This document shows positions 5,449 to 59,609 of a stretch of 64,000 bases of DNA, in pieces; position 1 is the stretch's first letter, and each line of letters opens with the position of its first letter. The notes below the pieces were generated by a model. It was not told where the DNA came from and searched no databases. It saw only the letters and a program-made list of their open reading frames with translations. Both the position numbers and the translations under genes were made by a program. The DNA is taken from contig JBHGNT010000018.1 in NCBI GenBank assembly GCA_043228905.1, positions 2,294,001 through 2,358,000 of the forward strand, written 5' to 3'. The DNA comes from Azolla caroliniana (Eukaryota > Plantae > Polypodiophyta).

Positions 5449-7877
5449 TCAATTAGATTCCTCCACGTCTTCATTCACATCCGTCATACTATCTTCATCA
5501 TCGAGGTGATCGAGGTCTAGATCCTCGTCTTGTCTTTTCTTGAAAACCTTTACTCTTTTTCCCGCAATGGGTATGGCCAACCTTGATCCATCTAGCTCTG
5601 CAAGGTGGTATGTGGCATTGTCGTTGGCACTTATCACCACATACCGTCGGAACCATCTTCTTACGAACTTTCTTGTTGTACTGTGTTGATTGTCAAGGCT
5701 GCTGTCATAGACCAATACCCAATCTCCTTCTTCGATCCTCTTAGGACGTAGTCGATGCGTCTTGTCGAACTGAATTTTGTTCTTCACTCGGGCTACCTCC
5801 ATCATTTTTCGCGCATGTTCTAGATCTTCAGGTCTCCTTTCAAGTTGCCTTATCCGTGCCGCTAATAATTCTTCTCGACTCATCTCATTCTCCCATGGTA
5901 TCGCTCCCATGAGGCGATCGTCCTTTCGATGGGCATCACCGGCTTTTGTCCATACATAAGCTCCGTTGGCATATACCCTGTAACCGAGCTGTGTGTCGTT
6001 CTGTCGGCCCACAAGGCATAGGGCAATAGTCGTGGCCAATTCCCGACTCGACCGTTGCATGCTCGTACGATGGCTTTGACGATGGGTCCATGCCCTCGCT
6101 CGATCTTCCCATTCACTTTTGGATTGTAGGCAGTCGTGAGGGAGAGCTTCACGCCTAGTCGTTCGAAAAGCTCCATTGCTTCATGTGCGTCCAACTCCCC
6201 TCGGTCAGCGACTATCTTCCCCACACATCCGTATCGGCAGACAACCTCTTCAAGTAGAAATTTTCAAATAGCTGATGTCGTCTTATTTGTCAAGGCCTGC
6301 CCTTCCACTTGATTTGTCAAGTCTTCTCTTGCCAGCACTAAGTACTTCATTTGTCCCACTCCCATTGGCATTGAGACCAGATCAACCATCCATTTGAAGT
6401 GTATGGTGAGCGGGTATGTCGGTCGTAGCTCATCATGATGACGTATGTTGGAATGTACTTGGCAAGTTTCGCATGTGGATACGAAATGGAGTACATCTTT
6501 GTACATGCTTGGCCACCAGTACTTTTCCTTCAACTTTTCGAACGTCGCCCATGTTCCTCTATGACTTGCCCAAGCACTCTCGTGGAATTCGATCATCAGC
6601 GTCACTTGCTCTTCTTTCTTCACCACCACTTAGCGTGGTATTCCCGTTCTTCTTTTTGGGTGTCGCCAAAGGAAGCCTCCCTTCAAGAAGTATCGATAAG
6701 CTTTCTTCCAGATTCGTAGAGCCTCCTCCTTTGTCAACGAAGCATCCGTCGTCATTGTTCTTAAGAATCTGCCGATCAGTAACCACTCTCCTTCGTACTC
6801 ATCGTCGTTGAAGGCGTGGAGGGTTAGAGTGTCCTTGTCTTCCGCCGATAATCGAGCCATCTTGAAGAAGTCGAGGGTGACGTCTTCATCTTCCAAAACC
6901 ATGTCACTTTCACTTTCAAATCTTGCCCTTCACAGCATATCAGCCATGGCATTCTTCTTCCCTGCAATGTGACGGATCTCTGGGTTTTAAGACTTGATAT
7001 AGGCGATCCACCTTAGCATAGCTAGATCTGGGGTTGCACATCCTGAGATCATTCTGAGGATTGGGAGACAATCTATCTCTATTATCACTTCCATCCCGAT
7101 CAGGTAATCTTTGTCCGTCTTCACTGCCGACACAATACCCCAAAGTTCCTGCTTGACTTGGGCATATTTTTGTTGCCGTTCGATGAGAACCTTTGCTCCA
7201 AACTGGATGGCATATCGTGTATTATCTTCTCCTTCTTGGTTGATGACCCACCCGATTCCGGTTGGGCTCGTATCTACAGTCACATAAATTGGCTTCCTTT
7301 CGGTATAATTGTCCTTTCTTAGTGTTGGAGCTTCAAGAAGTAGTTTCTTCAATCTTCACATCATGTTTGTATGCTTGCTTCGCCATTCGCACTTCATTCT
7401 TTTCTTTAGTAGTCCATATAACGGTTCGGCGACATGAGCGTAGTGAGGAATCCAGATATGATAAAACGCGCATGCTCCAAGGAACCTTCGAACCTCCGTT
7501 TGGTTTTCACATTCTTCTTCCATGTCTTGGATCACGTTCACTTTGGATGGCGAAGGCTTCCGGCTGTATGCTCCACACAAGTGACCTACCACCAAGATCT
7601 CTAGTTGCCCGAATGCGGATTTTTCTCCCGAAAATGTCAAATTCGCATATTCAAGCCTTTGAAGCACCTTCTCGCAATCTTTCATATGATCCGCGACAAA
7701 CTTTCTACACCCTTCCTTAGCTTTCGATTCATCTTTCTCCTCATCTGAACATCCTTTTATAAGAATATCATCCAAGAATGGCATCGTGATGTCCGGGATA
7801 CAATCCTTCAAGACTTTGTTCATGGCATTCACCATATGAGCCACCGAGTTCGTTGCACCTTAAGGTAAGGTACACAT
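5449..7877 (-). pseudogene. E1 pol 3' part: RT C-half, RNase H, integrase (stops and frameshifts)
   Basis: MPFLDDILIKG; VTVDTSPTGIG; H..HRG..CETC zinc finger; WMVDLV, ADRGE, NGKIERGH; RWFRRY (GPY-like). Confidence 0.92.
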
Positions 7878-8202
7878 TGTTACCCTACCCGTAAGAATAT
7901 ACAGGGAGGCATAAGGGTAGGTGTAATGATGTGGTTGATGTGTATGTGTAAAGTAAATGAGTGTGTGAGTATGTGTATGGACACATGCACAATTATCTGC
8001 ATGTGTACAAGAATGTGTATTGGTCTTATTTATAATGGTCATGTAACTGTTAAATTGGATGTATTATATAAACCCCTTATGGGAATGTAATGAGATATAC
8101 ACTTTTTTCCGCTTATTTTGGTGTCATTCTTATTTTCACTCTCTCCTCTCTCTCTATCGTAACCCCCTAGAAAGGCTTCACCCCCCACCCCGACAACACT
8201 TT

Positions 8203-8245
8203 TGGCATGCCTGGTGGGACACGAACCCACAATCCCTTGATTAGA
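8203..8245 (-). other. Extended PBS: DNA copy of tRNA-Arg(UCU) nt 34-76
   Basis: Minus strand reads TCT AA TCAAG GGATT GTGGG TTCGTGT CCCAC CAGGCAT G CCA: anticodon, 3' anticodon stem, variable loop, T arm, acceptor strand and CCA at canonical spacing. Confidence 0.8.
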
Positions 8246-9822
8246 GTTTTTACGGCCTTTCGTCCGTTAGCCCGTATCTCCTTTTCTCTGTCGGAGGATT
8301 GGCGTAGTTCTGCTCGAAGACAGTCAATTTCAGATTCCGCTAGCTGCACGACCCTTTTTGCTTTTGAGGCGATGGCGGTCTGAGCCTCGATTTCTTCTTT
8401 GAGAGCGTTGATAACGTGGTTCAGTGGCGGGGTTTCGTGTTGCGCCATAGTCGCGTGAGCTTCCAACTTTGCGATGCGTGCGTTGGCCTTTTGTAGTTCG
8501 GCTTCGGTCAGTTTAACCTTCTTCCAGACATTCTTATTTTTTATGGCCATCTCCTTGGCGCCCGTGCTGACCTTTGCCAGTTCCCGATGGACTTTGACTA
8601 GGGCCGTGTTTAAGGGTGGTATCTCCATCCCTACTCGTCGTACCCCGGCGTTCCTTTGTCTGCGGACCCTGGCTAGCCGGTCCTCATCATCGCTCTCCGT
8701 TGTTTGTGTTAGGGCGCGCTCTATCATCTGACGTTCCGCATGCTCCTCGATCATTCGTTGGGCGGCTTTGACCTGTTGTGTTGCCAGGAACTCCATGAGC
8801 TCGAAAGAGGTACCAAACTGCAAGAGGGCGCTGAATTCGTGGGCCGTATCCGGAATATCCGGATATGCCAAAACCTCGCTTTCCGCCGTCAATACGGCTT
8901 TCCCTCGTTGGGACTGAGTTGTAATAATCGGCCGCGGCTCTTGGATGATTTCGAAGGTGGTATTCGGCTTTGCTGTTGCGGAGCCTTCACCTTCGGTTGG
9001 TGCCTCCGGAGCCGTGGGGGCGTTTTTTACCAACCCTCGCCCATCTTTCCTGTCCAATCTGCGCCGTTTTGGTCTAGGGCTTTCCTGCCGTGCTTCGGTG
9101 TCTGGTTCAGGGGCTGCTTCCATGGGGCGTCTCGGCTGTTCCTCCTGCGTCGCCCGTGTGTCCGGCTGGTCGGTAGGAGGTTTTGTACTTGGGCCTGGTT
9201 GGGCCGACTGGGGTTCCTCCTCCCACTCTGGGGCTACTAACTCCGCTAACCTGCGTTTTGCGGAGCGGGGCGGGGCCGTGGGTTGGCTGGGCTGCGGTGC
9301 TGGCAGGCCTCGGGGTGGAAACAGTACCGTAAGGTATTGTTGGATGATTGGCCTGAGCTTTTTGCCTGCTTGGTACGCATGCAAGCCTTCCCTTAACGCC
9401 GGCCCTGTGATGACCCCCCAGTCGACTGTACACCCTTCAAAGGTGTCGATAATGATGCCCGCCTTCTGCTTAGGCATCTCGTATGCGTTGACATGGATGC
9501 AGCCAATTTCGAGTAGGAACTTGGCAACTTCATGGAAGAAGGGATCCGGAATCTGTTTTGTTCTATAGGTCTTGGCGGAGGATGAATATGGGCCAAAATA
9601 CCGTTGCAGTGCCTCTGTAGGAGGTATTTAGAAATGTCTTTCGCCTAGTGAGGATAAGTCTAACTTCTTCTGAATGGAAGAGTTGGTGACCGTGTCGATG
9701 TTAAGCCGCCTGGCGATGTCCATGGCGTCCGGGTGTGGAGGTGCTTCTGCGACCCGAATGTAACCATCCAGGCGCTTCTCCACTAGCCATCGGCGTAAGG
9801 TAGTAGAGATGAAGATCGGCAT
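8246..9822 (-). pseudogene. Accessory ORF of the Tat-like element (unknown function; globular N-part, low-complexity middle, coiled-coil C-part)
   Basis: MPIFISTTLRRWLVEKRLDGY... one stop at 9628-9630, then ...EGCTVDWGVITG... through ORF 8167-9477. No RT or IN motifs. Truncated at the tRNA copy. Confidence 0.6.
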
Positions 9823-10932
9823 CGCCAGAGTAGGTTCGTGGAGAGGAGACGGGTAGTAGTGGTGAGTTGGAGCTCTAAGATAGGATGGGGAAGAAGGTTC
9901 TCCGGCTTTGTCCCGTTTGTTTGTCAGGCGTTGATGTTCGTATCGCCGACCCCCTTTGGCGTAACTCGGATGTCCACGATAATCCTCGTCCTCCTCGGAC
10001 TCGTTGTGATTCCGGCGATTCCGGTAGTACCGGTCCTCACGCGGGTTGCGATCTTTATACCGGGGTCGGTCTTCTTGCCTCCTTTGTTCCGCCCGGTGCG
10101 GTTGACGCTGTGTGTCCATGCTGCGGACTGCGGGAGTGGCTCTGTTTAACATATTGTACTCGCATTGGTCGACTGTGTGAACCTTCGAGTGGCAGATTGG
10201 GCAGTGGATTTGCATATTGCACTCCACCGCGGAATGCCCCGAGTTCAAGCAAATCGTGCACTGGATTGCTTGACGAAATTGGCGTTCCTCATCCTGAGGT
10301 AACGCCTGTCGTAAGGATGACATCGAAAACCTATCCTCCTCGTCATCCAACTCGAGCTGTAACGCTCGTTCAATCACCATATTCGTCGTTTCCCCTTTCA
10401 CGCTATTCTTGTTGAGCGTTGCCCGGATGGGCTGGCGTAACGCTGCCAGAAATGTCTCCCGAGCCTCCTCCTCCGCGGGGCTTCGATCCAGTTTCCGTCG
10501 TAAATTTTGGAAACGTAAGCTGAAGTCTGCTATCGTCTCGGTCGGTAGTTGCTTAATTGTATAAAACTGCCCGAGAATCTCGCGTTGTGGAACCCTCTGG
10601 TGGAAGAATCGCAAGAAGGCGGACTGCAGCTGATCGAAGGTTGTTATGGCTGGTAAGTCCATCTGTGAATGCTAGAACGCCGCACACCCATCTAATGTTA
10701 ATCCGAACTCCGTCATTTTCGACTGGTGTGCCACCGTCTCGGAGAGATTCTGCGCCATGTGGTTCGCATTCCAAATGTTCAAGAACATGAGAATATGAGT
10801 TGCGGCGTCGGTTTTGCCGTTAAAGCGGGGGTAGGCAAAGGCCATCGTGGGAGTTACGGCGGATCGGAACAGGTCACCGAGTGGCTGCGGTGAACGTGGT
10901 CCCCTCGTCTCGTTGAGGTATTTGGGGAGCAA
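9823..10932 (-). pseudogene. Gag of the Tat-like element (frameshifted; two CCHC knuckles)
   Basis: YPRFNGKTDAATH, FGLTLDG, FYTIKQLPTETIADFSLRF, CTICLNSGHSAVEC, CPICHSKVHTVDQC. Homologous to Gag at 57970-59349. Confidence 0.88.
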
Positions 10933-11030
10933 GGAATCCCCTTTGCACTTCTAGCAGGTAGTACTGAGGTTGCCGATGCGCGGCTTTTGCCGGGCGCGTT
11001 CTTCTACCTGGCGTGTGACGGACCTTGTTA

Positions 11031-11533
11031 TTGGCCGGTCTTGTCTTGTTGGTTCTCTGCGTCATCTGTGGCTAAACATCCATTCGTTGTTGCTCGTCTG
11101 TGAGGAAACACAAATCACCAAGCGTGCCAAAAGTGTTGTCGGGGTGGGGGGTGAAGCCTAGAAAGGCTTCACCCCCCTTCCAAGGGGGTATTCTCGGTCT
11201 GGCCGGTTATATGACCGCCTAGCCGGACCGGCTGTCCGGTTGGCTGTTGGCACCAACTGTCGCCGTCTATCTGTTGGCCGTTGGTCCTGGTCCATCCATT
11301 GTACAACGGTTGTCCGTATTCGGTGTCATCTATGGTTGCTAGACACCGGTTGTCTGGCTGTCTGTCGGCCTTTTTAATTCGCCGGTCTTGTTTTGTTGGT
11401 TCTCTGGGTCGTCTGCGGCTAAACATCCATTCGTTGTTGCTCGTCTGTGAGGAAACACAGATCACCAAGCGTGCCAAAAGTGTTGTCGGGGTGGGGGGTG
11501 AAGCCTAGAAAGGCTTCACCCCCCTCCCAAGGG
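11031..11533 (-). repeat. Two internal copies (~347-bp period) of LTR-end hairpin + PBS + leader
   Basis: 11031-11187 and 11378-11533 are near-identical. Each has ggggggtgaagcct-agaa-aggcttcacccccc and, on minus, cgacaaca-cttttggcacgcttggtg. Confidence 0.9.
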
Positions 11534-12103
11534 ATTGTGGGTTGACGCTTTTTTAAGATTGCTTAAAGTGTGCGGCACTTCATCGGGGGTTGTTTGGGGT
11601 GGACTCAAGTTTAGATCTTATTTGTATGTCTAAACATAAGTAGTGATATAGTTTTAGAAGAACAGAAAAGTGAGGGCGTGGGTGGGGGTTAGGGAAGTGT
11701 AGCTTGTTGAAGATATCAAAAGTATTTAAACCTAATCAAAGTTTTTAGAACATATTAAAGATCATTGGGATAACTTAAGTTATTAGACACCAATAAAGTA
11801 TTATTAAAACACCAATATAGAGTATTATTAAAACGGGACCACACGCTTAGATGAAAGGGTGTTGTTTAAACACACACTTAAGCAAACACTTAAAAGAAAG
11901 ATTGTTATAAAAAAATAAAAATAAAAATAGAAAAGAGAGATTGAGATTAAAAAATGATTATGGTTAAGAAGGGATTATGATTAATGGGCATGTAATGAGA
12001 TATACACTTTTTTCCTCTTATTTTGGTGTCATTCTTATTTTCACTCTCTCCTCTCTCTATCGTAACCCCCTTGGGAGGGGGGTGAAGCCTAGAACCGACA
12101 ACA

Positions 12104-14974
12104 CACATCCGCACAAGCCTGATCGGAGTCCTCATGGTTGTAATGTCACGACTGTTGATCGCCAATTGGAATTGGTCATATCCGGAGTAGAGATTGCCAA
12201 TGGAGTAGATGGACCGACCCACAAACGCCTCGGCAAATTCGTCCACGCTCGGACCGATTACGGCATTTCGAATTGTCACATTGTTGACGGTTTGAAGATC
12301 TTGGATGAATCGCAATGATCCATTCTTCTTCGGCACCGTGAACCACCTATTGGAATAAGGAGCATTCGACGGTTCCAAAATTTCCATATTCACCTTCTCC
12401 TTTAAGAGCTCGATCAGCTTCGGTAGGTGTGCTCTCGGAACCGGTATCGGTTTCAAATTCCAAGGTACATGCGGCACTGTGAAGATCACCATCGGCTCTA
12501 TTGCCCTTGGTTCAACACATCCGATTTCTTGTGGGAGAAATGTGAAAGCCTTCCCATGTCTCTCAAGCATGTCGCGAAACTTTCGCTCCTCTTCAGGGAG
12601 AAGGAAATCCTCCCTTCCAACTCGTAGCTTTCCCTTCGTCTCTTTGGTGAAGACATGACCTATTGTCTTTGGATCTCTTAAGCTTGGATCGTTAGTGACT
12701 TCCTTCATCTTTTGCCAGCTATCTTCCGGTAGCGGAATTGCAACTGGCTTGACCTTCTTATCCACCGTTTTATATTTTGTGTTGATGTCAGTTTCCTTCA
12801 TCAAGATGCTTCGATGATATTCATCGATGATAACGTACATGTTCATGGAGCTAACCGAAATCACGTGATGATCGTGAAGATAGCTCAAGTCCACGACGTC
12901 CTCGATTTCGCCGATAGTGTCGTTAAATGAGGCTTCTTCCATAATATGAGTCACGAACTCTTCTTCTTCTATTATGTTTTCTTCTTTCAGCATCTTCTCG
13001 AAGTTTTGTATCCAATGCTTGTCCTTCTTGTTGGGTAGTACTAGTTTACATGCGCCACTAGGTGTGACACATGTTGCTTCTCCTCGCAATCCACGCGCTC
13101 TACTTTCTTGTGGGGACTTGCGATTAATCGGACTATTTGTGCCCCATGCTTCAATAGTCCGCTCTAAAAATCCGGGGATTCGCCTCCAAGACTATCTCGA
13201 TTTCTTTCATGATTAGCTCGCACTGTTAGGAATTGGACCGATCTTTGGTTGTCAAGACTCTTTATTCGTGCGAAGGTTGCTCCATTATCGAACACTTTGG
13301 TCTCCATCTGAGATGATGTGATATACGGTTGTCCTAGGATGACAGGATGCGACGCCGATTCTTGCACGAAGAAGTGTTGATCCATCTCCACATCCCCGAT
13401 CGTGACTTTAACATTGGAACAAGCTTCGTACAAGTCCTCCGTAGTCTTTGTTGCGGCGCGAATCTTCCATCCGTGATTTGTATTGATTGGCCATCTTCCT
13501 TTTTTGTAGAAGTCGGTTGACATGAGGTTGATCTTCGAGTCGTGGTCGATCAAGGCTACCACGGTCTCTTTTTTCTCCCCGATCTTCATTGGCATCTCCG
13601 TTGTCGCTCGTGCCCAATAAGGTCGAGTATAGTGGCTGTCCACCATATCTTCATCAACTTCGTCTCTTGCCATCGTTATGGCATTCATTTTTTCTTTTTG
13701 CGGCTTCTCTTCTTCCTCGTCCGATTGTTGTCTTTTTCTCTTTACAAGGTCCACGATCATGTCATGGAACTCCTTCTTCGTAATGCCAAGCAATTCCCTC
13801 AAGGACAAAGTCACGTGGCTACCAAGAACACGTTCTTCATAATGCCAAGCAATTCCCTCAAGGACAAAGTCACGTGGCTATCAAGAACACGTTCTTCGAG
13901 AATCTTCTTTAGGTTCGTCGTCAGCTCTATGTCCGACCTCAGCTTATAGGTAGGCATAGCCCTTGTCCTCTGAGCGAGGTCTTCGACACCAACCTTCATG
14001 GGTCATACGGTTTCTTCGACTCGTATGCTCGGCTCTCCTTTTCGGCTTGATTCTTGTTCCTCCATTTGTAAAGCTCGACTTGTCTCCGCATCTTCCTTCT
14101 TTTCCGCGTTCCTTGTTTCATGTCTTTTTGATGGGCCTTGCTCTTCTATTCTTTTTCTCTTTTCTTCGACGAACACCTCGTGGTTGTTGCACATCACCTC
14201 CACGAGTATGGTGTTGTCATCCACCGGATCCGACCATCCGGTTATACTTTGCACACTTCAATCCACAAGCTCTACTTCGTTCGAAGTGACTTTTCCCTTC
14301 TTCTCATATTCGAGAACGGAAGTCCAAAACTTTGATCCCGCTCTAGCAGCTTTAGTTTTGTCTTTCCCGACTCTTATTCCGGCCGACGCAGCATAGTGCA
14401 TCGCATCCACATGAGTCGCATCGGCATCCTCCATAGCTTTCTTCATTCCTCCTCTTCCGAAATTCATCCGTAGGGGTCTTCTAGTCTCGCTCGAGCAAAT
14501 CATGTTGTCATCTATGTACGCGATATTTTGTCGAATGGCGTCTCGAAGGCTCGAACAATCTCTTCTCATGTGGTCCATGCCATCGCACCACATGCATCTA
14601 AAGGGTTCTTTTCCTTTGGGCCCTCGACGATTCATGTTGGCTAGCATAACCATCTTGAGCTTCTTCGCCAATTCTTCGATGATGTTGTCATCAATCTTCT
14701 TTTATTCGGGGTTACTTTGTTTGGGCGGCTCCGCTACTTTTGGTTGTCTTGTTTTCTCCGCAACAGTTGATCCCGCAAAGTCGTTCCTTCCATCAAATTG
14801 ACCCTCGAGCTCTACGACACGGCCGATAGCCTTCACCACGCTCGCATCGTTGTCTCAAGATCTCATCATTTGATCAACGATTATCATCATCCTTTCGAAT
14901 TCTCCCGCTTGGTTGCTTGAGGATGCCATCTCCAAGTATCGGTCGTCCTCAATTTGATCCTTCCTACCACCTCT
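12104..14974 (-). pseudogene. E1 gag, protease and RT N-half
   Basis: CMWCDGMDHMRRDC knuckle; ALIDHDSKINLM protease; APYSNRWFTVPKKNGSLRFIQDL and LYSGYDQF. A 59-bp tandem duplication lies near 13773-13890. Confidence 0.92.
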
Positions 14975-40556: not shown

Positions 40557-43500
40557 TGTTGGGATTACGGTCCCTTCTCATGGGATGGTCGGATATCGGA
40601 GATGAATGCCGACAAGCCCGGTTTCGGTTTCGGATCCGGATGAAGAAGACCCCGGTTTCGGTACCGGATGACGAATGTACCCGGAGAGCGATCCGGATGC
40701 AGGGACATATCCGTGAATATGTTCGCTATGGGCCCCTGAGGCTACAGTTGTAAATAGCCCAAAGTCATATAAGTATAAATATGACTTAGGGCAAACAGTG
40801 TTGTTGTTGCTTATCATTTTTCTGTTTTTCCACTCAAGAGGAGTGAAGAGGGAGCAGCCGTGAGACAGAGTGAGAGATAGAGCGCGAGAGAGGAAGAGGA
40901 CGACGCCTCTGTGTATTTCCGCCGCCTGTGGCAAGGACAGCGAGCTCAAGGTCGTCGCCTTGGAGCTCGTCATTGTATACTTCTCTTGTATAGTGTTGTT
41001 TGGAGTCTTGTACTCCCGTGGTTTTTCCCATCTAGGGTTTTCCACGTTAACCCCTGTGTACTCGTGTGTTTCTCTCTTTTGGTTTCTATTTTCTGCTGCA
41101 TTGATCCGCGATTACTCGGTTGTGGCCGAAAGGAAGAAGGTGAATCCAAGCGTTGATTCCCAACAAACTGGTATCAGAGCAAACTGCTGCAGAAAATGGA
41201 AGGCGGCGGCAGCGGGCAGCCGGGGATGATGGTGCTGAATGCGCAGAATTACGCCGACTGGAAGATCAAGATGGAGGATCTTCTGATTGTTCGGGACCTG
41301 TACGAACCGATTGACAGGTCGGAAATACCGAAGGGGGTACTTGAGTCGGAGTGGAAGCTCCTGAACCGGAAAGCCGTAGCGACGATCCGACAATATGTCG
41401 ATGTAAGCGTCCTACAACATGTGGCGAACGACACCAACGCATATGAGATGTGGAAGAAGCTGTCGGGCCTCTACGAGAGGAAGAATGCGTTGAACCGGAC
41501 CTCCCTGATGAGGAAGATAGTGAACCTCAAGTACCGGGACGGCGAGAGTATGGTGGAACACGTAAGCACGTTCATGGGATTCGTGAATCAGCTTGCGGCG
41601 ATCAAGTTCCCGTTGGAGGATGCAATGCAAGCCATCATCCTGATGTGTACATTGCCGGAAAGCTGGGAGAACTTGGTGGTGACTCTCAGCACCTCCTGCA
41701 CCGAAGATAACTTGTCCTTACAAACGGTAAAGACAAGTATTTTGAATGAAGAAGCGCGTCGGAGAGATAAGGAACCGGCCTCCGACCCGAAGATGTTGTT
41801 TACCGAATCGGATCGGGGAAGACAATGGAACCGGAGTCCGCAAAGACGGGAGAAGTCGGGGACCCGGTCGCAGTCAAGAGGAAGGCCCACATGCTTCCAC
41901 TGTGGGAAGCCGGGGCACTTCCGAAAGAATTGTCGGCATTACCGAAAAGACAATGGAACCGACAACACCGATTCGAAGAAGTCACCGGAGAGAAACGGTG
42001 AATACCGGGGAGCCACGGACCGGAATGGTTCGGATCGGCGAGGACAGGACCGGAAAGGAACAACGGCACTCGCGGCAAGTGAGGAAGAAATCATGCTCAT
42101 CACCGAAGAAGGTGAGCTAAACGTTGCCGTCGATGAGACGACCTGGGTGGTCGATTCCAGAGCATCGTTCCACCTGACCCCGGAGAGAAGATACTTCTCA
42201 TCCTACACAGCCGGTGAGCATGGCTGTGTTCGGATGGGAAATGAAGGTACGTGCCGGATTTCCGGCATAGGAGACGTGTGGTTGACAACCCCGACCGGAT
42301 GCAAAATGCTGCTGAAGGATGTCCGACACGTTCCGGAGGTTCGATTGAACCTGATTTCGGCCGGGAGGCTAGACGATGAAGGCTACACAGGTAGCATCCG
42401 GAACGGCGTAATGAAGTTCAGCAAGGGGAGCCTGATAGTGGCTCGGGCCCGGAAAGTCAACACACTGTACCTGATGAATGCCCGGTTATGTCCGGAAGAA
42501 CTGAATGTGGCAGCCGACACTGCCGGTGAGCTGTGGCACAAGAGACTGTGCCACATGAGTGAGAAGGGGATGAAGAGGCTTGCAGAAGACAACCTTATCC
42601 CAGTGAAGCATGTGCACCTGGAGAAGTGCACCGATTGCCTGGCCGGTAAGCAGAACCGAACCTCCTTCCACTCAAGGCCACCGACGAGACTGAGCGCACC
42701 ATTGGAGTTGGTGCACACTAATGTGTGTCAGGTAGAAACGAAGTCACATGGCGGAGCCCAGTACTTCGTAACATTCATTGATGATCACAGCCGGAAGCTG
42801 TGGACGGCACCGTTGAAGACAAAGGACCAAGCGTTGTGCGTCTTCAAAGAACTCCACGCGAGAGTGGAAAGGGAATCCGGCAAGAAGCTGAAAGCGATAC
42901 GAGCGGATAACGGAGGGGAATACCGGGGGCAGTTCCAGGAGTACTGTCGCTCGAAGGGAATCCGACTCGAGTTTACTGTGCCGAAGACGCCGGAACTGAA
43001 CGGGCTGGCTGAGAGGATGAACCGGACCATAATGGAGCGGGTCCGGAGTATGCTGGCGCATGCGAAATTACCCAAGGGGTTTTGGGCTGAGGCAATGTCG
43101 ACGGCGACATACGTGATAAACAGATCACCCTCAGTACCTTTGGACGGAGACACGCCGCAGAAAGTGTGGACCGGTAAGGAAGTGTCCTACCGGCATCTGA
43201 AGGTGTTCGGGTGTCTCGCATACGTGCATGTGGCAAAGGACCGGAGAGGAAAGCTAGATCCAAAGACCCGGCCATGCATATTCCTCGGTTACGGCGATGA
43301 CGAGTTCGGCTACCGAGTATGGGACCCGGTCGACAAGAAGATATTCAGGAGTCGAGACATCATCTTCATGGAGGACAAGACACTCGCCGACTGGGAGTCG
43401 GAGAAGAAGGTGAAGAGCTCCAAGTCGACCGGTGAGGATCAACTCTACAAGGAGCAGTCCCGACCGGCAAGGGACCGGTTAGCACTCGAGGATCCGGCCG

Positions 43501-45888
43501 AAGACGGTGAAGAAACAGAACCGGCCGAAGAGGATGAAAACGATACCGGAACCGGCCCCGATCCCGAAATGGATTCGGATGAAGAAGAATCGGAAGAACC
43601 GGTTACCGAAGCTCCGGAACGGAGATATCCTCTAAGAGAGAGAAGGGCCCCCCGGAGATTTCCGGAACCAGAGCACGTGCTGCTAACCGACGAGGGGGAG
43701 CCGGAGAGCTTTGAAGAAGCAAAACATGACACCCAGAGCCGCAGGTGGTTGAGTGCCATGCAGGACGAAATGGATTCCCTGCACGAGAACCACACATATG
43801 AACTTGTGGAGTTGCCGAAAGGAAAGCGGGCACTTCGAAACAAGTGGGTGTTCAAGCTGAAACCGGGAGATGCCGGAAACCCCCCGAGATACAAAGCCAG
43901 GATCGTGGTGAAGGGGTTTCAGCAGAAGAAGGGCGTCGACTTCGACGAGATATTTGCCCCGGTAGTGAAGATGACCTCCATCCGGACGGTGCTGAGCATA
44001 GCGGCAAGCATGGACCTCGAGGTAGAACAGATGGACGTGAAGACGGCATTCCTTCACGGTGACCTCGATGAAGAGATCTACATGCAGCAACCGGAAGGAT
44101 TCGAGAAGAAAGGGAAGGAGCACCTGGTATGCCGGTTGAAGAAGAGCCTTTACGGACTGAAGCAGGCTCCCCGGCAATGGTACCGGAAGTTCGACTCCTT
44201 CATGACCGACGAAGGGTACCTCAAAACGCAGTCCGACCACTGCGTGTTTGTGAAGAAGTTCGAAGGAGGAGACTTTCTAATACTCCTCCTGTACGTGGAC
44301 GACATGTTGATCGTCGGACGGGACCAGGTCAAGATCCGGATGCTGAAGAAGGCTCTTCACCGAACCTTCTCAATGAAGGACCTGGGTCCGGCGAGACAAA
44401 TACTAGGGATGCACATCATCCGGGACCGGAGCAAGAAGCAGTTGTGGCTGTCACAGGAGAAGTACGTGACGAAGGTGCTTCACCGGTTCAACATGTCGGA
44501 AGCAAGACCGGTCGGATCGACCCTCCCGACAAACTGCAAGCTGTCCAGCAAGCAAAGTCCCAAGACAAAGGCTGAAAAGGAGGATATGATGAAAGTGCCG
44601 TATGCCTCAACCGTCGGGAGCTTGATGTACGCCATGGTGTGTACGAGACCGGACATCGGATATGCAGTCGGAGTGGTGAGCCGGTACATGAGCAATCCCG
44701 GGAAAGAGCATTGGAACGCAGCCAAGTGGATACTCCGATACCTGAAGGGCACGGCAAACGTGTGCCTCCGATTCGGCTCCGGAAAGCCCGAACTCGACGG
44801 CTTTACCGATTCGGATATGTCGGCTGATGCAGATACCAGCCGGTCCACATCAGGGTATGTGATGACGTATGCAGGGGGAGCTGTTTCATGGCAGTCGAGG
44901 CTGCAGAAGACGGTTGCGCTGTCAACCACGGAGGCGGAGTACATGGCGGCTGTTGAAGCCGGCAAGGAAATAATATGGATGAAGGACTTCATTAGAGAGC
45001 TCGGTATCCGACAGGAGGAGTACCGACTCTACTGCGACAGTCAGAGTGCAATCCACCTTGCGAAGAACGCGGCCTATCACTCCCGGACGAAGCACATCCA
45101 GCGAAGATATCACTGGATCCGGGAAAGGATAGAAGACAAGGAGTTCGTGCTGACAAAGATCCACACGGACGAGAACGGGTCGGATATGCTGACCAAGGTC
45201 CTCACACCCGACAAGCTGGAAGCATGCCGGAAGAGGATCGGATTGGAGAGACATCCCATGCCGAAGTGAAGGGGGAGTTTGTTGGGATTACGGTCCCTTC
45301 TCATGGGATGGTCGGATATCGGAGATGAATGCCGACAAGCCCGGTTTCGGTTTCGGATCCGGATGAAGAAGACCCCGGTTTCGGTACCGGATGACGAATG
45401 TACCCGGAGAGCGATCCGGATGCAGGGACATATCCGTGAATATGTTCGTTATGGGCCCCTGAGGCTACAGTTGTAAATAGCCCAAAGTCATATAAGTATA
45501 AATATGACTTAGGGCAAACAGTGTTGTTGTTGCTTATCATTTTTCTGTTTTTCCACTCAAGAGGAGTGAAGAGGGAGCAACCGTGAGACAGAGTGAGAGA
45601 TAGAGCGCGAGAGAGGAAGAGGACGACGCCTCTGTGTATTTCCGCCGCCTGTGGCGAGGACAGCGAGCTCAAGGTCGTCGCCTTGGAGCTCGTCATTGTA
45701 TACTTCTCTTGTATAGTGTTGTTTGGAGTCTTGTACTCCCGTGGTTTTTCCCATCTAGGGTTTTCCACGTTAACCCCTGTGTACTCGTGTGTTTCTCTCT
45801 TTTGGTTTCTATTTTCTGCTGCATTGATCCGCGATTACTCGGTTGTGGCCGAAAGGAAGAAGGTGAATCCAAGCGTTGATTCCCAACA
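40557..45888 (+). mobile_element. Full-length Ty1/copia (Tnt1/Tork-like); 609-bp LTRs 40557-41165 and 45280-45888; TSD caggg/taggg
   Basis: TGTTGGGA...TCCCAACA termini and three LTR differences. PBS tggtatcagagc at 41169, PPT gaagggggag before 45280. Confidence 0.97.
41196..45269 (+). CDS. Copia Gag-Pol polyprotein (Gag-CCHC-PR-IN-RT-RH), 1357 aa
   Basis: CFHCGKPGHFRKNC, LWHKRLCH, ADNGGEY, NGLAERMNRT, MDVKTAFLHG, LLYVDDM, TKHI, SDMLTK. Copia domain order. Confidence 0.96.
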   Translation: MEGGGSGQPGMMVLNAQNYADWKIKMEDLLIVRDLYEPIDRSEIPKGVLESEWKLLNRKAVATIRQYVDVSVLQHVANDTNAYEMWKKLSGLYERKNALNRTSLMRKIVNLKYRDGESMVEHVSTFMGFVNQLAAIKFPLEDAMQAIILMCTLPESWENLVVTLSTSCTEDNLSLQTVKTSILNEEARRRDKEPASDPKMLFTESDRGRQWNRSPQRREKSGTRSQSRGRPTCFHCGKPGHFRKNCRHYRKDNGTDNTDSKKSPERNGEYRGATDRNGSDRRGQDRKGTTALAASEEEIMLITEEGELNVAVDETTWVVDSRASFHLTPERRYFSSYTAGEHGCVRMGNEGTCRISGIGDVWLTTPTGCKMLLKDVRHVPEVRLNLISAGRLDDEGYTGSIRNGVMKFSKGSLIVARARKVNTLYLMNARLCPEELNVAADTAGELWHKRLCHMSEKGMKRLAEDNLIPVKHVHLEKCTDCLAGKQNRTSFHSRPPTRLSAPLELVHTNVCQVETKSHGGAQYFVTFIDDHSRKLWTAPLKTKDQALCVFKELHARVERESGKKLKAIRADNGGEYRGQFQEYCRSKGIRLEFTVPKTPELNGLAERMNRTIMERVRSMLAHAKLPKGFWAEAMSTATYVINRSPSVPLDGDTPQKVWTGKEVSYRHLKVFGCLAYVHVAKDRRGKLDPKTRPCIFLGYGDDEFGYRVWDPVDKKIFRSRDIIFMEDKTLADWESEKKVKSSKSTGEDQLYKEQSRPARDRLALEDPAEDGEETEPAEEDENDTGTGPDPEMDSDEEESEEPVTEAPERRYPLRERRAPRRFPEPEHVLLTDEGEPESFEEAKHDTQSRRWLSAMQDEMDSLHENHTYELVELPKGKRALRNKWVFKLKPGDAGNPPRYKARIVVKGFQQKKGVDFDEIFAPVVKMTSIRTVLSIAASMDLEVEQMDVKTAFLHGDLDEEIYMQQPEGFEKKGKEHLVCRLKKSLYGLKQAPRQWYRKFDSFMTDEGYLKTQSDHCVFVKKFEGGDFLILLLYVDDMLIVGRDQVKIRMLKKALHRTFSMKDLGPARQILGMHIIRDRSKKQLWLSQEKYVTKVLHRFNMSEARPVGSTLPTNCKLSSKQSPKTKAEKEDMMKVPYASTVGSLMYAMVCTRPDIGYAVGVVSRYMSNPGKEHWNAAKWILRYLKGTANVCLRFGSGKPELDGFTDSDMSADADTSRSTSGYVMTYAGGAVSWQSRLQKTVALSTTEAEYMAAVEAGKEIIWMKDFIRELGIRQEEYRLYCDSQSAIHLAKNAAYHSRTKHIQRRYHWIRERIEDKEFVLTKIHTDENGSDMLTKVLTPDKLEACRKRIGLERHPMPK

Positions 45889-55411: not shown

Positions 55412-57629
55412 TGTTACCGGCCGGCAAAGGAGTCCAGAGTGGGAAATGGAGAGTTATTTAAGTAGTAGGAATGTGGTTGTAATTAAGCTATGAGTGTGGA
55501 CGGACGGACCAGAATCGGTATGCCGTTCCGGATCCGGACCGATCCCGAACAGGTGCGGATGGCACCGTTTTGTAATACAGACCGGAAACCTATTTAAAGG
55601 CCCGGATACAATGTAATGAATAGCGGTTAATTAATAAAAGCTTAGCGTTGTTATCTCTCTGTGTAATTGTCGTTCTGTCTTAATTGTTATATCTTACTCG
55701 TGTGATTATGAAAGACGATCATGCTCAGTAACTTAATTAAGTCGGATTAAGCGTTGAGTCTAATCTGGTTGCCGTAACACCCTTTGGTGAAGTGTCTTCC
55801 GTAGACACCCTGTGTTAGGCCATTGTCCGGCCCTAAGAGTTAACACACCTTTTGGCAACCACTAAGGTGACCCCCCTTTGGAGACGAAGTTAAAGATTAA
55901 TACGTGGCAGAGACAACAACGACGAAATGTCCGATAATGGTAAAGATGATGTGCAAGAAATCAAATCAATGATGTGTTGCAAATGGTGGTCACGAGATAC
56001 TAAACGAAGCCGAGGAATGAGAAATGGTGTTGACGATTTGCGTGTAGTTGATCGCAAAAGAAAGACGAACAAAAGTTTATGATCTATGGGTTAGCAATGG
56101 AAGTGCAAAGGAGAGAGAGACCCAACCATCACAAACCGTATCTTCCAAAGATGAGAGTGCATTTCTATCCACATATGTCCGGTCAGACATGGCCAGAAAG
56201 ACAAACGACCGGAGGGCCGAATGATGACCAAAACCAAACGGGCATGGATGGGCTGGATAGAGACAACGCTTGAATGAAGCATCGATGGTTGGACGAGATT
56301 CGACAGACATGAATTGGACAAACGACCAGAGACTCGTTAGACAGGGCCCACAAAGATGGAACAAAGATGGAGAAGGCAATGAAGAAAGTGAAAGAAATGC
56401 CAAAAACAACTGACGAAAACATAAGGACAAAGGCCGGAATGGCTGGATAGTGGGCAAGAGTGGCCGGAGTGACCGAATAGCAGCCGAAGTGACCGGAGTG
56501 GATGGACAACAGTCCGAGCGGCCAAAGTGGCTGGACAACAGTTGGAGCGGTCGGATAGGCCGAGAGTGGCTGGACAGGAGTCGGAGAGCCGAAACGACCG
56601 GAGAGCGGCCGGACAGGACGGCAGTCGAACATCATCTGTATGGTGACGACCTAATAAAGCAGCCGGAGCAGCCGGGTTGGGGTGGCCAGACAACCAACGG
56701 CCAGAGCGGTGGCCGAATAGCGACGACCGGATGCCACGTACAAAGATAGTGGCGTCGGCCTTACAATAGTCTGATAGTGGCAGTAACCGAATTGCGGCTA
56801 GAGCAGCGGTCGGACAGAGACACGCCGAACAGACAGAGGAACTGGGTACCGGACGGACAGGCGCCGAGTAGCGACAGCGGAACAATGATACAGAGACGGA
56901 GACGACGAAAACAAACACAACGGACAAACGGACATAAATCTTCTCATCACCACGCCATCGCCACCGTCAACACACAAGCACAGAAGATGATCACGATGAA
57001 TATCAGGAAGACGGCAGAGGAGGACGAGGAAGAGAAAGAGACAAGGACAAAAGCGAAGGTTGAGATAGACAAGCACTACTAGAAAAGGATTAGGAAGAGG
57101 AGATGAAGAAAGAACAAGAAAATGCAGAAAATAAGAAGAAACAGAGACGGGAGAAAGAACGATAAGAAGAAGAGACAAGGAAAACAACCTAAAGAAAAAC
57201 AGAAAACAATAAGAGGAAGAAGAGAGGGAAAAAGAAAAAGAAAACATAGGGGCATGTGAAGAATTTCGGAAACATGAGTGTACATCAACAAATTTCATAA
57301 ACATAAGGGTACAATATAAAATTTTAAAAACAAGAGGGCACCACTAGAATTTTGAAAATCCCCAAGACTACTCACACACACTCAAAACAAAGGAAGAACA
57401 CACATACATACGACATGATTTTGGACCCATGACGAAGTTCGTAAGCCGACAGAACGAGAATGTTTTTGTCGCGGACGATTTGCTGACCGACAAAGATGTT
57501 CGAGTCAAGCCTTCCGATCGAGGGAGTTGATCATTGAAAGGACCGATGGAAGTTCTGGTCGAAGAAATATCATCATCAAGGCATGTGGGATTGACGTGCA
57601 AGGCACTTTCCCACGGGCGTGCCATATTG
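55412..57629 (+). mobile_element. Probable unclassified LTR (55412-55779) with degenerate non-coding internal region
   Basis: TGTTAC...GTAACA termini, internal tatttaaa, followed by ccctttggtg (PBS-like). GGCC/GGAC-rich short repeats at ~56420-56760 and a purine tract at ~57000-57250. Confidence 0.5.
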
Positions 57630-59609
57630 TGTTACCCCGTACGAGATGTACGGAGAGTCAATGTGATGAGAGAGGGTCAAATGTTATCATGATGATTGTT
57701 GTGTGTGTGTAGGGGGCATAAATGTAATTGTGAGTCGATATGTATGTGAATACATGCACACGTGTGTGCATGTGGATGGATACGAGGAGGTGTGAGTGAG
57801 TGTCCAGTATGAATGCTCTTGGGGGCTTACACCCCTTTGTATCTACCCCCTCTTGTACTATTTAACCCCTTATGGGGAATGAATGAAGGGAGGATCATTT
57901 TTCTCTCTCAATCTCTCTCTCTCTTGTCATCTCTCTTTCTCTCTCTCTCCCCCTCAACGTTGAATCCCCTTGGGAGGGGGGTGGAGCCATTCAGCAGAGG
58001 AAGAGCGACCTCCGACACCAGAAGTCGAAGAGGAGAGGCCTCCATCACCAAAAGAAGAGGAAAAACCACCGACGCCGGAAACAAATCGGGAAAGACCACC
58101 GACGCCGGAGAAAATTCCGGAACGAGCACCAACACTACCTGCCCGCGCACCGATACCGGACGACGACATACCATTCCAGTACTCCAAGTATAGAGATGAT
58201 CCAGACGCGGAAGCTCATGTGCACGCCTTTGAACAGACATGGGAAGCCAACCATGTGTCCCAGCGATTGACCCCGGATGAAGAAGAACGCTCTAAGATAG
58301 CGGAATTTGGCGTCACATTGGAGGGACCGGCAGCAAGATGGCGCCGGACGCAGGACCCGTCTACCATCAACACCTTTGCAGATTTAAAATCTAAATTCTT
58401 GCATTTTTTCCAAAAGGAGGTGGACCAGACCGTAATGGTAGGCTTATTTTATACCATCCGACAGGAGGCAGGGGAGAGCATTCCCCAATTTGTCATCCGG
58501 TTTCAACGGATGCATAGTCAGCTTGCCCGCGCACCCCCGGGGGAGGAATTACGGACTATATTCCTAAACGCGCTCCGGGAACCCCTACGCACGGTTTGCA
58601 CAGTAATTGACTTCCGCACAAGTACCATCAACCAGGTCATTGACCGGGTGAGAGAGACGGAAAAGACAAGCTCCTGGCTCACACTGGGAGCACTCCAACG
58701 GGCGTTACCGTCCGATGAAGACCTCCAGTTTCGACAAGCAATACAGTGCACAACCTGCTTGAATTCCAGACACTCGGCTCTAGAATGCACTATGAGGACG
58801 CAATGTGTAATCTGTCAATCCAAGAGCCATACGACAGATAGGTGCGAGTATAATCTATTGAACCGGCAAGCACCGCCTGTCCGACAAATTGAGCCACGCA
58901 GCAGCCAGGATGAAGAAGAGGAACGCTGGCGGCGAATGGACCGCAACCGACCGGCACAGGATGTCCGGTATGGCGATCAACGGGAGAATGATGTCTGGTA
59001 CGGTGATCGACGGGATAACTATGACCGGCATGATCGGTACCGGGATTACAATAGACGATACGAACATTACGACAGGGAGCACTCCCCCGGGTATCGTCAA
59101 CAACGGGAGGAATACGGCAGATATAACAGGCAACCCCGTCAAGAGTACCGCAATAAGAAGAGCTATAACAAAAAACGGCAGTTTAAAAAAGGCGGCTACC
59201 CACGGGATCCGGAACAAGGAGCTCCAAGCAGCCTACCGGTCCAAAACCCCGCGTACCGCAGGACCTGCCCCGGGTACAACAGACAATGCCGAATCCAACA
59301 ATACCCGGAAAGCCTACTGCTACTACTACCGACAGGAAGGCCATTATAGTAACCAATGCCCGGTGAAGAGCTATGAAAAACGATCGGCGGTAAATATGGT
59401 AGTCCTTGAGGTGGCAAATCTGCAGCAGGTGACCACAAGGTCGAAGGGCATGGCCAAGGAATGGGAGACGCAGGAGACCATCCGGAAACAAGCAACGGAA
59501 TGGGTAAAGAAAGCAAACGAGCAGAATGTCACAGACTTACAGCGGCAAAAGGAGAACACCGTAGGGCTTGCCGGTGGTAGTCACTTCGAGAACGAGACAT
59601 GGCAGGTGT

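What the first reader, a model, noticed from the sequence alone, without database searches (positions are those of the whole stretch)
8203..8245. Genomic fossil of a modified tRNA: primer read through m1A58 to the wobble base
Seen: the PBS continues 25 nt beyond the usual 18. On minus it reads TCT-AA-TCAAG-GGATT-GTGGG-TTCGTGT-CCCAC-CAGGCAT-G-CCA, i.e. tRNA nt 34-76 including CCA. The T-loop has T at position 58, where tRNAs have invariant A. Established: m1A58 normally stops plus-strand strong-stop synthesis and causes RT misincorporation when bypassed, and U34 of eukaryotic tRNA-Arg(UCU) is modified. Inference: this RT bypassed m1A58, miscoded it, and stalled at U34 before switching template, so two RNA modifications are recorded in DNA.
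Basis: partly seen in the sequence, partly recalled or inferred. Interest (0 to 1): 0.8.

Follow-up and report, generated by a model that had tools for sequence, protein, structure and literature searches.

The report
Retrotransposon fossil of over-copied primer tRNA
A scrambled, likely dead plant jumping-gene copy carries about 40 letters of the host arginine tRNA that likely primed it, instead of the usual 18, with one wrong letter exactly where tRNAs normally bear a methyl mark, likely a copying error frozen into DNA, while a second recorded mark at the anticodon cannot be shown.

Summary
Window 8203-8245 is the complement of tRNA-Arg(UCU) nt 76-34, including CCA, directly after an LTR end. 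It matches a host-type gene at 38 of 40 bases, differing only at 58 (A>T) and 71 (G>A, a CpG). Of 8 gene-like copies covering position 58, none has T; a later chance T there is about 0.1%.

The best reading is plus-strand DNA that ran past m1A58 of the primer, miscoded it, then jumped on a 2-3 nt microhomology into the middle of an extra ORF. Further switches left a TSD-flanked, pol-less copy with inverted gag and a second 16-nt tRNA piece.

The claimed stall at modified U34 is not resolvable. AG(A) at 8243-8245 is shared by tRNA and acceptor, the published minor HIV stops lie elsewhere, and run-off from a 3' tRNA half predicts the same end.

Two contigs from other samples hint that the over-copy recurs. 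This scan noted the same phenomenon in two other genomes (unreviewed, not checked here). No paper describing such a fossil was found. Verdict: one modification likely recorded, not two; moderate interest.

The parts
7873..7877 (+). left target-site duplication (CACAT) inside the RT gene of a host Ty3/gypsy element
   Evidence: sequence; empty-site joint 7871->12103 in 3 of 4 runs; RVT_1 at 7359-7859
7878..8198 (+). left LTR (TG..CA), native sense; its U5 hairpin lacks the first arm
   Evidence: collinear with the related LTR at 57630-57990 that precedes a + strand gag
8199..8202 (+). 4-nt spacer between LTR end and PBS
   Evidence: same spacer in both inverted LTR-end/PBS copies
8203..8220 (+). 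18-nt PBS, complement of tRNA-Arg(UCU) nt 76-59 incl. CCA; one CpG-type change at 8208 (nt 71)
8221..8221 (+). A opposite tRNA position 58 (A58>T in tRNA sense): likely m1A58 miscoding
   Evidence: modification itself inferred
8222..8242 (+). over-copied tRNA nt 57-37, perfect match to host-type gene
8243..8245 (+). AG(A) microhomology shared by tRNA nt 36-34 and the acceptor ORF; template-switch point
   Evidence: loose ends before 8243 and 8246
8246..9898 (-). extra ORF of the family, cut mid-frame at 8246; no Pfam family
   Evidence: homologs P0018-P0026 continue past GRKAVK; junction near 9898 from loose ends
9912..10950 (-). gag (PF03732), inverted relative to the left LTR, C-terminally cut; no pol in this copy
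11008..11186 (-). first inverted leader/PBS/U5-end copy; PBS matches tRNA only over nt 76-63
11354..11533 (-). second inverted leader/PBS/U5-end copy; PBS again nt 76-63
11528..11543 (+). second tRNA piece (nt 40-55, tRNA sense, 16/16), joined to inverted U5 through a shared 6-mer
   Evidence: (E 0.028)
11545..11983 (.). AT-rich block of unknown origin, repeated in the genome
11984..12103 (+). right R/U5 end (..CA); its hairpin lacks the second arm; followed by TSD CACAT 12104-12108

Best explanation
[quoted passage not shown] The over-long end could no longer pair with the element's own 14-nt PBS. It likely jumped on the 2-3 nt microhomology AG(A) into the middle of the family's extra ORF. 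More switches followed, including a fold-back onto the over-copy itself (11528-11543). Integrase then likely inserted the scrambled cDNA, whose two ends were still correct, with a 5-bp TSD. Shown: the tRNA match, CCA, the change at 58, the microhomology, the TSD, the cut ORF and the inverted gag. Inferred: that A58 was methylated, that RT made the error, and the order of switches. Why copying ended at nt 37-34 is open. My odds: pause in the anticodon loop with the end chosen by microhomology about 45%, run-off from a 3' tRNA half about 30%, block by modified U34 about 25%.
For: (1) 38/40 match to a host-type gene, contiguous with CCA complement, spacer and LTR end. (2) The element's two other PBS copies match only nt 76-63 and differ at nt 68, whereas 8203-8245 follows the gene there, so it was re-templated from tRNA, not copied from those PBSs. 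(3) Position 58 is A in 7 of 8 gene-like copies covering it in L060/L061 (1 C, 0 T) and in 58 of 58 viral tRNAs found with that base left free. (4) A<>T changes are 9 per 3116 A/T sites in six repeat pairs of the window at 3.3% divergence; this element's internal repeats differ at 4 of 288 sites; scaled, a chance T58 is about 0.1%. (5) m1A causes arrest plus misincorporation, and m1A followed by G gives a low-C pattern, leaving T and G (PMC4787781 passages and section 32). m1A58 exists in plant tRNAs (PMC12150641 passages). [quoted passage not shown] (7) TG..CA ends, TSD and an empty site in 3 of 4 runs show an integrase-type insertion. (8) Run X1 holds a contig with a differently broken U5 hairpin that matches 8177-8244 at 67 of 68, so it shares at least one of the two non-gene bases; run X10 holds a 68-nt contig covering 8177-8245 with 4 other letters and 3 gaps.
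Against: It is a single substitution in one copy; the base at 58 in the other contigs could not be read (the table of other letters was empty). A second mismatch (71) shows the copy is not free of later change. The host has tandem arrays of tRNA-Arg(UCU) genes and decayed copies: one with C58, two with A71, and one with a gapped T-loop that could be aligned to T58, so a DNA donor cannot be excluded. L060/L061 are tied to the host only by shared repeats and flanks. One study found A58U tRNA fully functional for HIV-1 and no extra tRNA sequence in proviruses (PMC1785368 passages), so m1A58 is not the only stop determinant. The signature data come from other RTs in vitro.
Confidence: 0.75

Rival explanations
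1. One reading: two modifications are recorded, m1A58 by miscoding and modified U34 by a stall that forced the template switch.
For: With only the invariant AG as overlap, the last copied base is nt 35, one before U34. The X1 contig also ends at 8244. Plant U34 is commonly modified (PMC12150641 passages).
Against: The junction allows any end from 37 to 34. Listed HIV-1 stops are 58, 55, 54 and ms2t6A37. Modifications off the Watson-Crick edge give weak or no RT signature; that mcm5U-type groups sit at C5 is my own knowledge. A contig end is an assembly feature, not a stop site.
Confidence: 0.2
2. The primer was a 3' tRNA half cut in the anticodon loop; RT bypassed m1A58, ran off its 5' end and clamped onto a new template. 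One modification and one cleavage site are recorded.
For: tRNA halves arise by anticodon-loop cleavage, by RNase T2 in Arabidopsis (PMC12105621 passages). 2-nt clamp switching bridges template ends. The end point lies in the loop.
Against: No RNA data for this organism bear on it. The cited review says halves are mainly stress-induced. An earlier unreviewed note reports a roughly 52-nt over-copy of another tRNA in another genome, so ends need not mark cuts.
Confidence: 0.25
3. DNA-level capture: repair synthesis slipped from the PBS into one of the arrayed tRNA-Arg genes or pseudogenes through about 15 nt of homology, and T58 is that donor's or a later mutation.
For: Tandem arrays with decayed copies exist (7 hits in L060, 6 in L061, some partial). 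Changes at 58 and 71 occur in them. The PBS itself would supply the CCA complement.
Against: 0 of 8 copies covering 58 show T, and decayed copies carry further changes in this span, whereas the window has none besides 58 and 71. The chance rate is about 0.1%. The second tRNA piece and the multiple switches lie inside intact integrase ends.
Confidence: 0.1
4. Inherited family feature: one old read-through became fixed in a sublineage, or the 43-mer is the tRNA-end cassette that related families carry in place of the polypurine tract, so it says nothing about this copy's own reverse transcription.
For: The X1 and X10 contigs share the extension. A tRNA-Arg-3'-half-like stretch lies just before the related LTR at 57630 (14 of 2000 shuffles score as high). 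Earlier unreviewed notes describe such cassettes in this genome and a 500-copy fixed over-copy in another genome.
Against: 8203-8245 follows the U5 end, not the U3 start; the related LTR fixes the orientation. This element's two other PBS copies are short. Summed depth halves at 8208-8215 in X1 and falls less in the other runs (the tool warns depth is no copy number). Even if inherited, the origin would be the same read-through.
Confidence: 0.15

Closest known systems
Over-extended plus-strand strong-stop products of HIV-1 on tRNA-Lys3 (P3-P5; PMC13191261 passages, PMC8599865 passages, PMC1785368 passages)
   Same: [quoted passage not shown]
   Different: Seen there in vitro, and products reaching the loop are described as unable to complete transfer. 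Here the product is integrated in a plant genome, rescued by a microhomology jump, and keeps a base change at 58.
Primer over-extension sequence of lentiviruses and spumaviruses (described in PMC13191261 passages)
   Same: Genomic tRNA complementarity that continues beyond the 18-nt PBS.
   Different: That is a conserved, functional extension to about nt 54-55. This one reaches nt 37-34, and the element's other two PBS copies are shorter than 18 nt.
RT signature of m1A in tRNA-seq (PMC4787781 passages and section 32; PMC11417395 passages)
   Same: Mismatch at A58, T being an expected outcome when G follows.
   Different: Made in vivo by a retrotransposon RT (inferred) and stored in chromosomal DNA; a single molecule, not a read pile.
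Plant Ty3/gypsy LTR retrotransposons, non-chromovirus with extra ORFs (PMC6317226 passages)
   Same: TG..CA LTR ends, 5-bp TSD, tRNA PBS, gag, an extra ORF.
   Different: This copy has no pol, inverted gag, three PBSs and non-matching U3 regions; its lineage was not placed on a tree.

Membership tests
Over-extended plus-strand strong-stop product | contiguous with U5 end and PBS on the plus strand | tested here: met
Over-extended plus-strand strong-stop product | copy of mature tRNA (CCA present, not in gene) | tested here: met
   5 of 5 ARAGORN-called Arg genes in L060/L061 lack CCA; but any PBS supplies it, so it does not by itself exclude DNA capture
Over-extended plus-strand strong-stop product | matches host primer tRNA beyond nt 59 | tested here: met
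   24 of 25 bases; host link
Over-extended plus-strand strong-stop product | primer carries m1A58 | not testable with these tools
   general plant knowledge only
Over-extended plus-strand strong-stop product | ends at a known blocking modification | tested here: inconclusive
   end lies in nt 37-34 behind a microhomology; known stops differ
Primer over-extension sequence (lentivirus type) | family-wide fixed complementarity to about nt 54 | tested here: not met
   two other PBS copies of this element break at nt 62; whole family not surveyed
tRNA gene or full retro-pseudogene | complete cloverleaf with 5' half | tested here: not met
   ARAGORN 0 genes in window; RF00005 only 10.7 bits, 5' cut
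Ty3/gypsy LTR retrotransposon copy | TG..CA ends with 5-bp TSD | tested here: met
Ty3/gypsy LTR retrotransposon copy | gag | tested here: met
   PF03732 E 1.6e-07; homolog P0001 also hits Ty3_capsid below cut-off
Ty3/gypsy LTR retrotransposon copy | pol with RT-RH-INT order; phylogenetic lineage | tested here: not met
   no pol ORF between the ends; lineage therefore not placed
tRNA-end cassette in place of the PPT (earlier unreviewed notes) | tRNA 3' end in sense just before the U3 start of the 3' LTR | tested here: not met
   8203-8245 abuts the U5 end; the cassette-like stretch is at 57576-57624 before another LTR

The most novel reading that the evidence does not exclude
Over-copied primers recur in this retrotransposon family and elsewhere, so genome assemblies hold a fossil tRNA-seq: position-58 miscoding and anticodon-loop end points report tRNA modifications and cleavage sites in the germ line, by isodecoder. 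The same accident, inverted and fixed, is the origin of the tRNA-half cassettes that replace the polypurine tract in related families of this genome.
Probability: 0.25. Interest if true: 0.72.

Novelty: new variant of a known kind. Interest (0 to 1): 0.42.

Why it matters
The m1A58 stop and its bypass rest mostly on retroviral RTs in vitro and remain partly disputed (PMC8599865, PMC1785368 passages). An integrated over-copy with the predicted wrong base is an in vivo trace of bypass by a plant retrotransposon RT, and shows that such a product can still integrate after a microhomology jump. Collected genome-wide, such junctions would make stop positions and miscoding spectra countable without any RNA work. 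This single copy is a likely dead accident with no sign of function.

Tried and rejected
Genome access: no whole genome is held, so the tRNA gene set and the family's PBSs could not be surveyed.

Collection scans: an LTR-end/PBS pattern gave 0 hits in viral contigs and 0 in genome contigs. The gag query gave 6 pattern hits, none confirmed, in viral contigs. The single metagenome scan gave 3 loci, none with an LTR junction; L059 is a tRNA-Leu and was dropped from the count at 58.

Sequencing runs: no RNA holder listed. Only 4 of 16 listed runs were laid, all as contigs. No listed piece bridges 8245/8246 in them (longest listed 68 nt, 784 not shown), which proves nothing either way. The other-letters table was empty and cut to 40 of 682 rows, so the base at 8221 was not read in any run.

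Rfam: no match above cut-off around the site.

Rejected: chance match (E 7.9e-12); the C-terminal tail of the ORF at 8167-8245 as real protein (homologs diverge after GRKAVK); 8203-8245 as a PPT-side cassette. Whether the extra ORF is natively sense or antisense to gag could not be settled (skews uninformative), so the inversion point may be 8246 or 9898-9912.

Literature: searches found no paper on a genomic PBS over-copy with a position-58 change. The library lacks most subscription papers and I read no supplements. PMC2582038 (passages) and PMC11251516 (passages) added nothing on extended PBSs.

Full report
Context. The window is a nest of LTR retrotransposons. It looks plant-like; earlier unreviewed notes call the genome a fern, which I did not test. 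No whole genome is held. The finding lies in an insertion at 7878-12103 that begins TG, ends CA, is flanked by CACAT on both sides and interrupts the RT gene of another element. The uninterrupted site is seen in 3 of 4 runs laid.

Observation. On the minus strand 8245-8203 reads as tRNA nt 34-76. A pattern scan with position 58 left free returned 3 metagenome loci. Two hold arrays of tRNA-Arg(TCT) genes; the third is a tRNA-Leu and was set aside. The window matches the L061 gene at 38 of 40 bases, differing at 58 (A>T, 8221) and 71 (G>A, 8208, a CpG), and the match breaks at nt 33. The genes lack CCA. They are tied to the host indirectly: L060 shares retroelement DNA with the window at 74-88%, and in runs holding this element 20, 16, 25 and 6 contigs run on from 8245 into the same tRNA 5' half, while 8, 11, 12 and 7 begin at 8205 with unlike flanks (24 of 158 loose-end rows shown).

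Is T58 more than chance? Among gene-like copies in L060/L061 with E below 1e-3 that cover position 58, 7 have A, 1 decayed copy has C and none has T. One more decayed copy has a gapped T-loop that BLAST did not align there and that could be read either way. All 58 viral tRNAs with this T-arm have A. In six repeat pairs of the window (mostly LTR pairs), A<>T changes are 9 per 3116 A/T sites at 3.3% mean divergence, and the element's own repeats differ at 4 of 288 sites. Scaled, that gives roughly 0.1% for a later T at this pre-named site. m1A produces arrest plus misincorporation, with low C when G follows, as here (PMC4787781, passages and section 32). m1A58 is present in plant tRNAs (PMC12150641, passages). 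The modification on this tRNA is inferred, not measured.

Is it the PBS? Notes on this genome describe families with a tRNA end where the polypurine tract should be, and gag here lies on the opposite strand, so I tested the side. A related LTR at 57630-57990 is collinear with the left LTR and precedes a + strand gag, so the left LTR is in native sense and 8203 follows its U5 end. The element also holds two inverted LTR-end/PBS/leader copies (11008-11186, 11354-11533) whose PBS matches the tRNA only over nt 76-63 and differs at nt 68. The 8203 copy follows the gene at 68 and beyond, so it was not copied from those. As an internal control, five PBSs of another type in the window agree over 18 nt and then diverge; that they are tRNA-Trp sites is recalled, with a similar motif so assigned in PMC2582038 (passages).

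The end point. Homologs of the extra ORF continue well past the residue at which the window's ORF meets the tRNA copy, so 8245/8246 is a real cut. Family contigs align from 8246 (10, 9, 8, 3) or from 8243 (10, 6, 6, 2). Those stopping at 8246 show AG followed by G or C in their loose ends, so AG is shared and the third base varies. Only nt 76-37 must come from tRNA; the likeliest last copied base is 35 or 34. That is compatible with a stall at U34 but does not show it. Minor HIV-1 stops are at psi55, m5Um54 and ms2t6A37 (PMC13191261, passages). Plain t6A is silent in one tRNA-seq method (PMC11417395, passages). Modifications that spare the Watson-Crick edge leave weak signatures (PMC10851944, passages). 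A 3' half cut in the anticodon loop (PMC12105621, passages) would end the template at the same place, and RTs including Tf1 switch on 2-nt overlaps (PMC3035444, passages).

A multi-switch product. A second perfect tRNA piece, nt 40-55 in tRNA sense, sits at 11528-11543, joined to the inverted U5 through a shared 6-mer (alone E 0.028). The simplest reading is a nascent strand folding back on the over-copy, which would place the over-copy in the same molecule before integration (inference). The U5 hairpin has lost one arm at the left end and the other at the right, gag is cut near 9912, and pol is absent. The copy is predicted to be non-autonomous.

Does it recur? One X1 contig (124 nt, depth 36.8) has a differently broken hairpin and matches 8177-8244 with one other letter, so it shares at least one of the two non-gene bases. 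Its single-copy-like depth through 8214-8244 suggests it is not gene-type at 58 (inference from how such contigs are built). One X10 contig covers 8177-8245 with 4 other letters and 3 gaps. About four further loci align from exactly 8195 to 8245 in three runs; they may be sister-family over-copies or arrayed genes with a similar flank, and I could not read them. Earlier unreviewed notes report A58>T in about 500 copies of one family and A58>G in a 52-nt over-copy fused to mid-RT, in two other genomes. I did not check them and do not count them as support.

Comparison and verdict. The mechanism is known from retroviral biochemistry (PMC8599865, PMC1785368, PMC11251516, PMC13191261; passages), including a conserved primer over-extension sequence in lentiviruses. 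Six searches found no report of an integrated over-copy with a position-58 change; coverage is limited and no supplements were read. I rate it a new variant of a known kind: m1A58 bypass with miscoding likely (0.75), a recorded U34 modification unproven (about 0.2-0.25). Interest 0.42, rising to about 0.7 if a genome-wide survey shows independent over-copies with biased bases at 58 and clustered ends.

Noticed in passing
window 57576-57630: Just before a related LTR lies a stretch like a tRNA-Arg 3' half ending in CCA, with an enlarged T-loop hairpin, at the place of the polypurine tract (14 of 2000 shuffles score as high). It fits earlier notes on PPT-less families and may be an old, fixed, inverted over-copy.
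   Followed up: partly
L060 3337-4483; L061 564-2221: Tandem arrays of tRNA-Arg(UCU) genes and decayed copies (7 and 6 hits, some partial), the tRNA that primes this abundant family; tandem joints also appear in three runs.
   Followed up: partly
runs X1, X4, X5, pieces 8195-8245: About four single-copy-depth loci align from exactly the last four LTR bases through the PBS to nt 34, one in tandem about 290 nt apart: sister-family over-copies or tRNA genes with an LTR-like flank. Unresolved.
   Followed up: no
window 22077, 34915 (+); 20657, 51226, 61888 (-): Five PBSs agree over 18 nt, then carry 0-4 variable bases before a shared GGCGG-like motif, perhaps non-templated or miscoded additions at the strong-stop end.
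   Followed up: no
window 8166-8186, 11146-11178, 11493-11525, 12077-12094: The 14-bp U5 hairpin is broken at both ends of the element and its loop is flipped relative to the inverted copies; the related LTR at about 57990 is also cut inside this hairpin. A likely template-switch hotspot.
   Followed up: partly
window 8246-9830 (-): Extra ORF of about 540-800 aa in relatives, no Pfam family in the window copy, 9 homologs all from one source collection; function and native orientation unknown.
   Followed up: partly
window 40560-45888: Young intact-looking Ty1/copia element (1370-aa ORF, LTRs 0.5% apart).
   Followed up: no
window 59610-62598: Young 3-kb LTR element (LTRs 0.6% apart) with one 569-aa ORF without Pfam match and no pol, inserted in the related element.
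   Followed up: no
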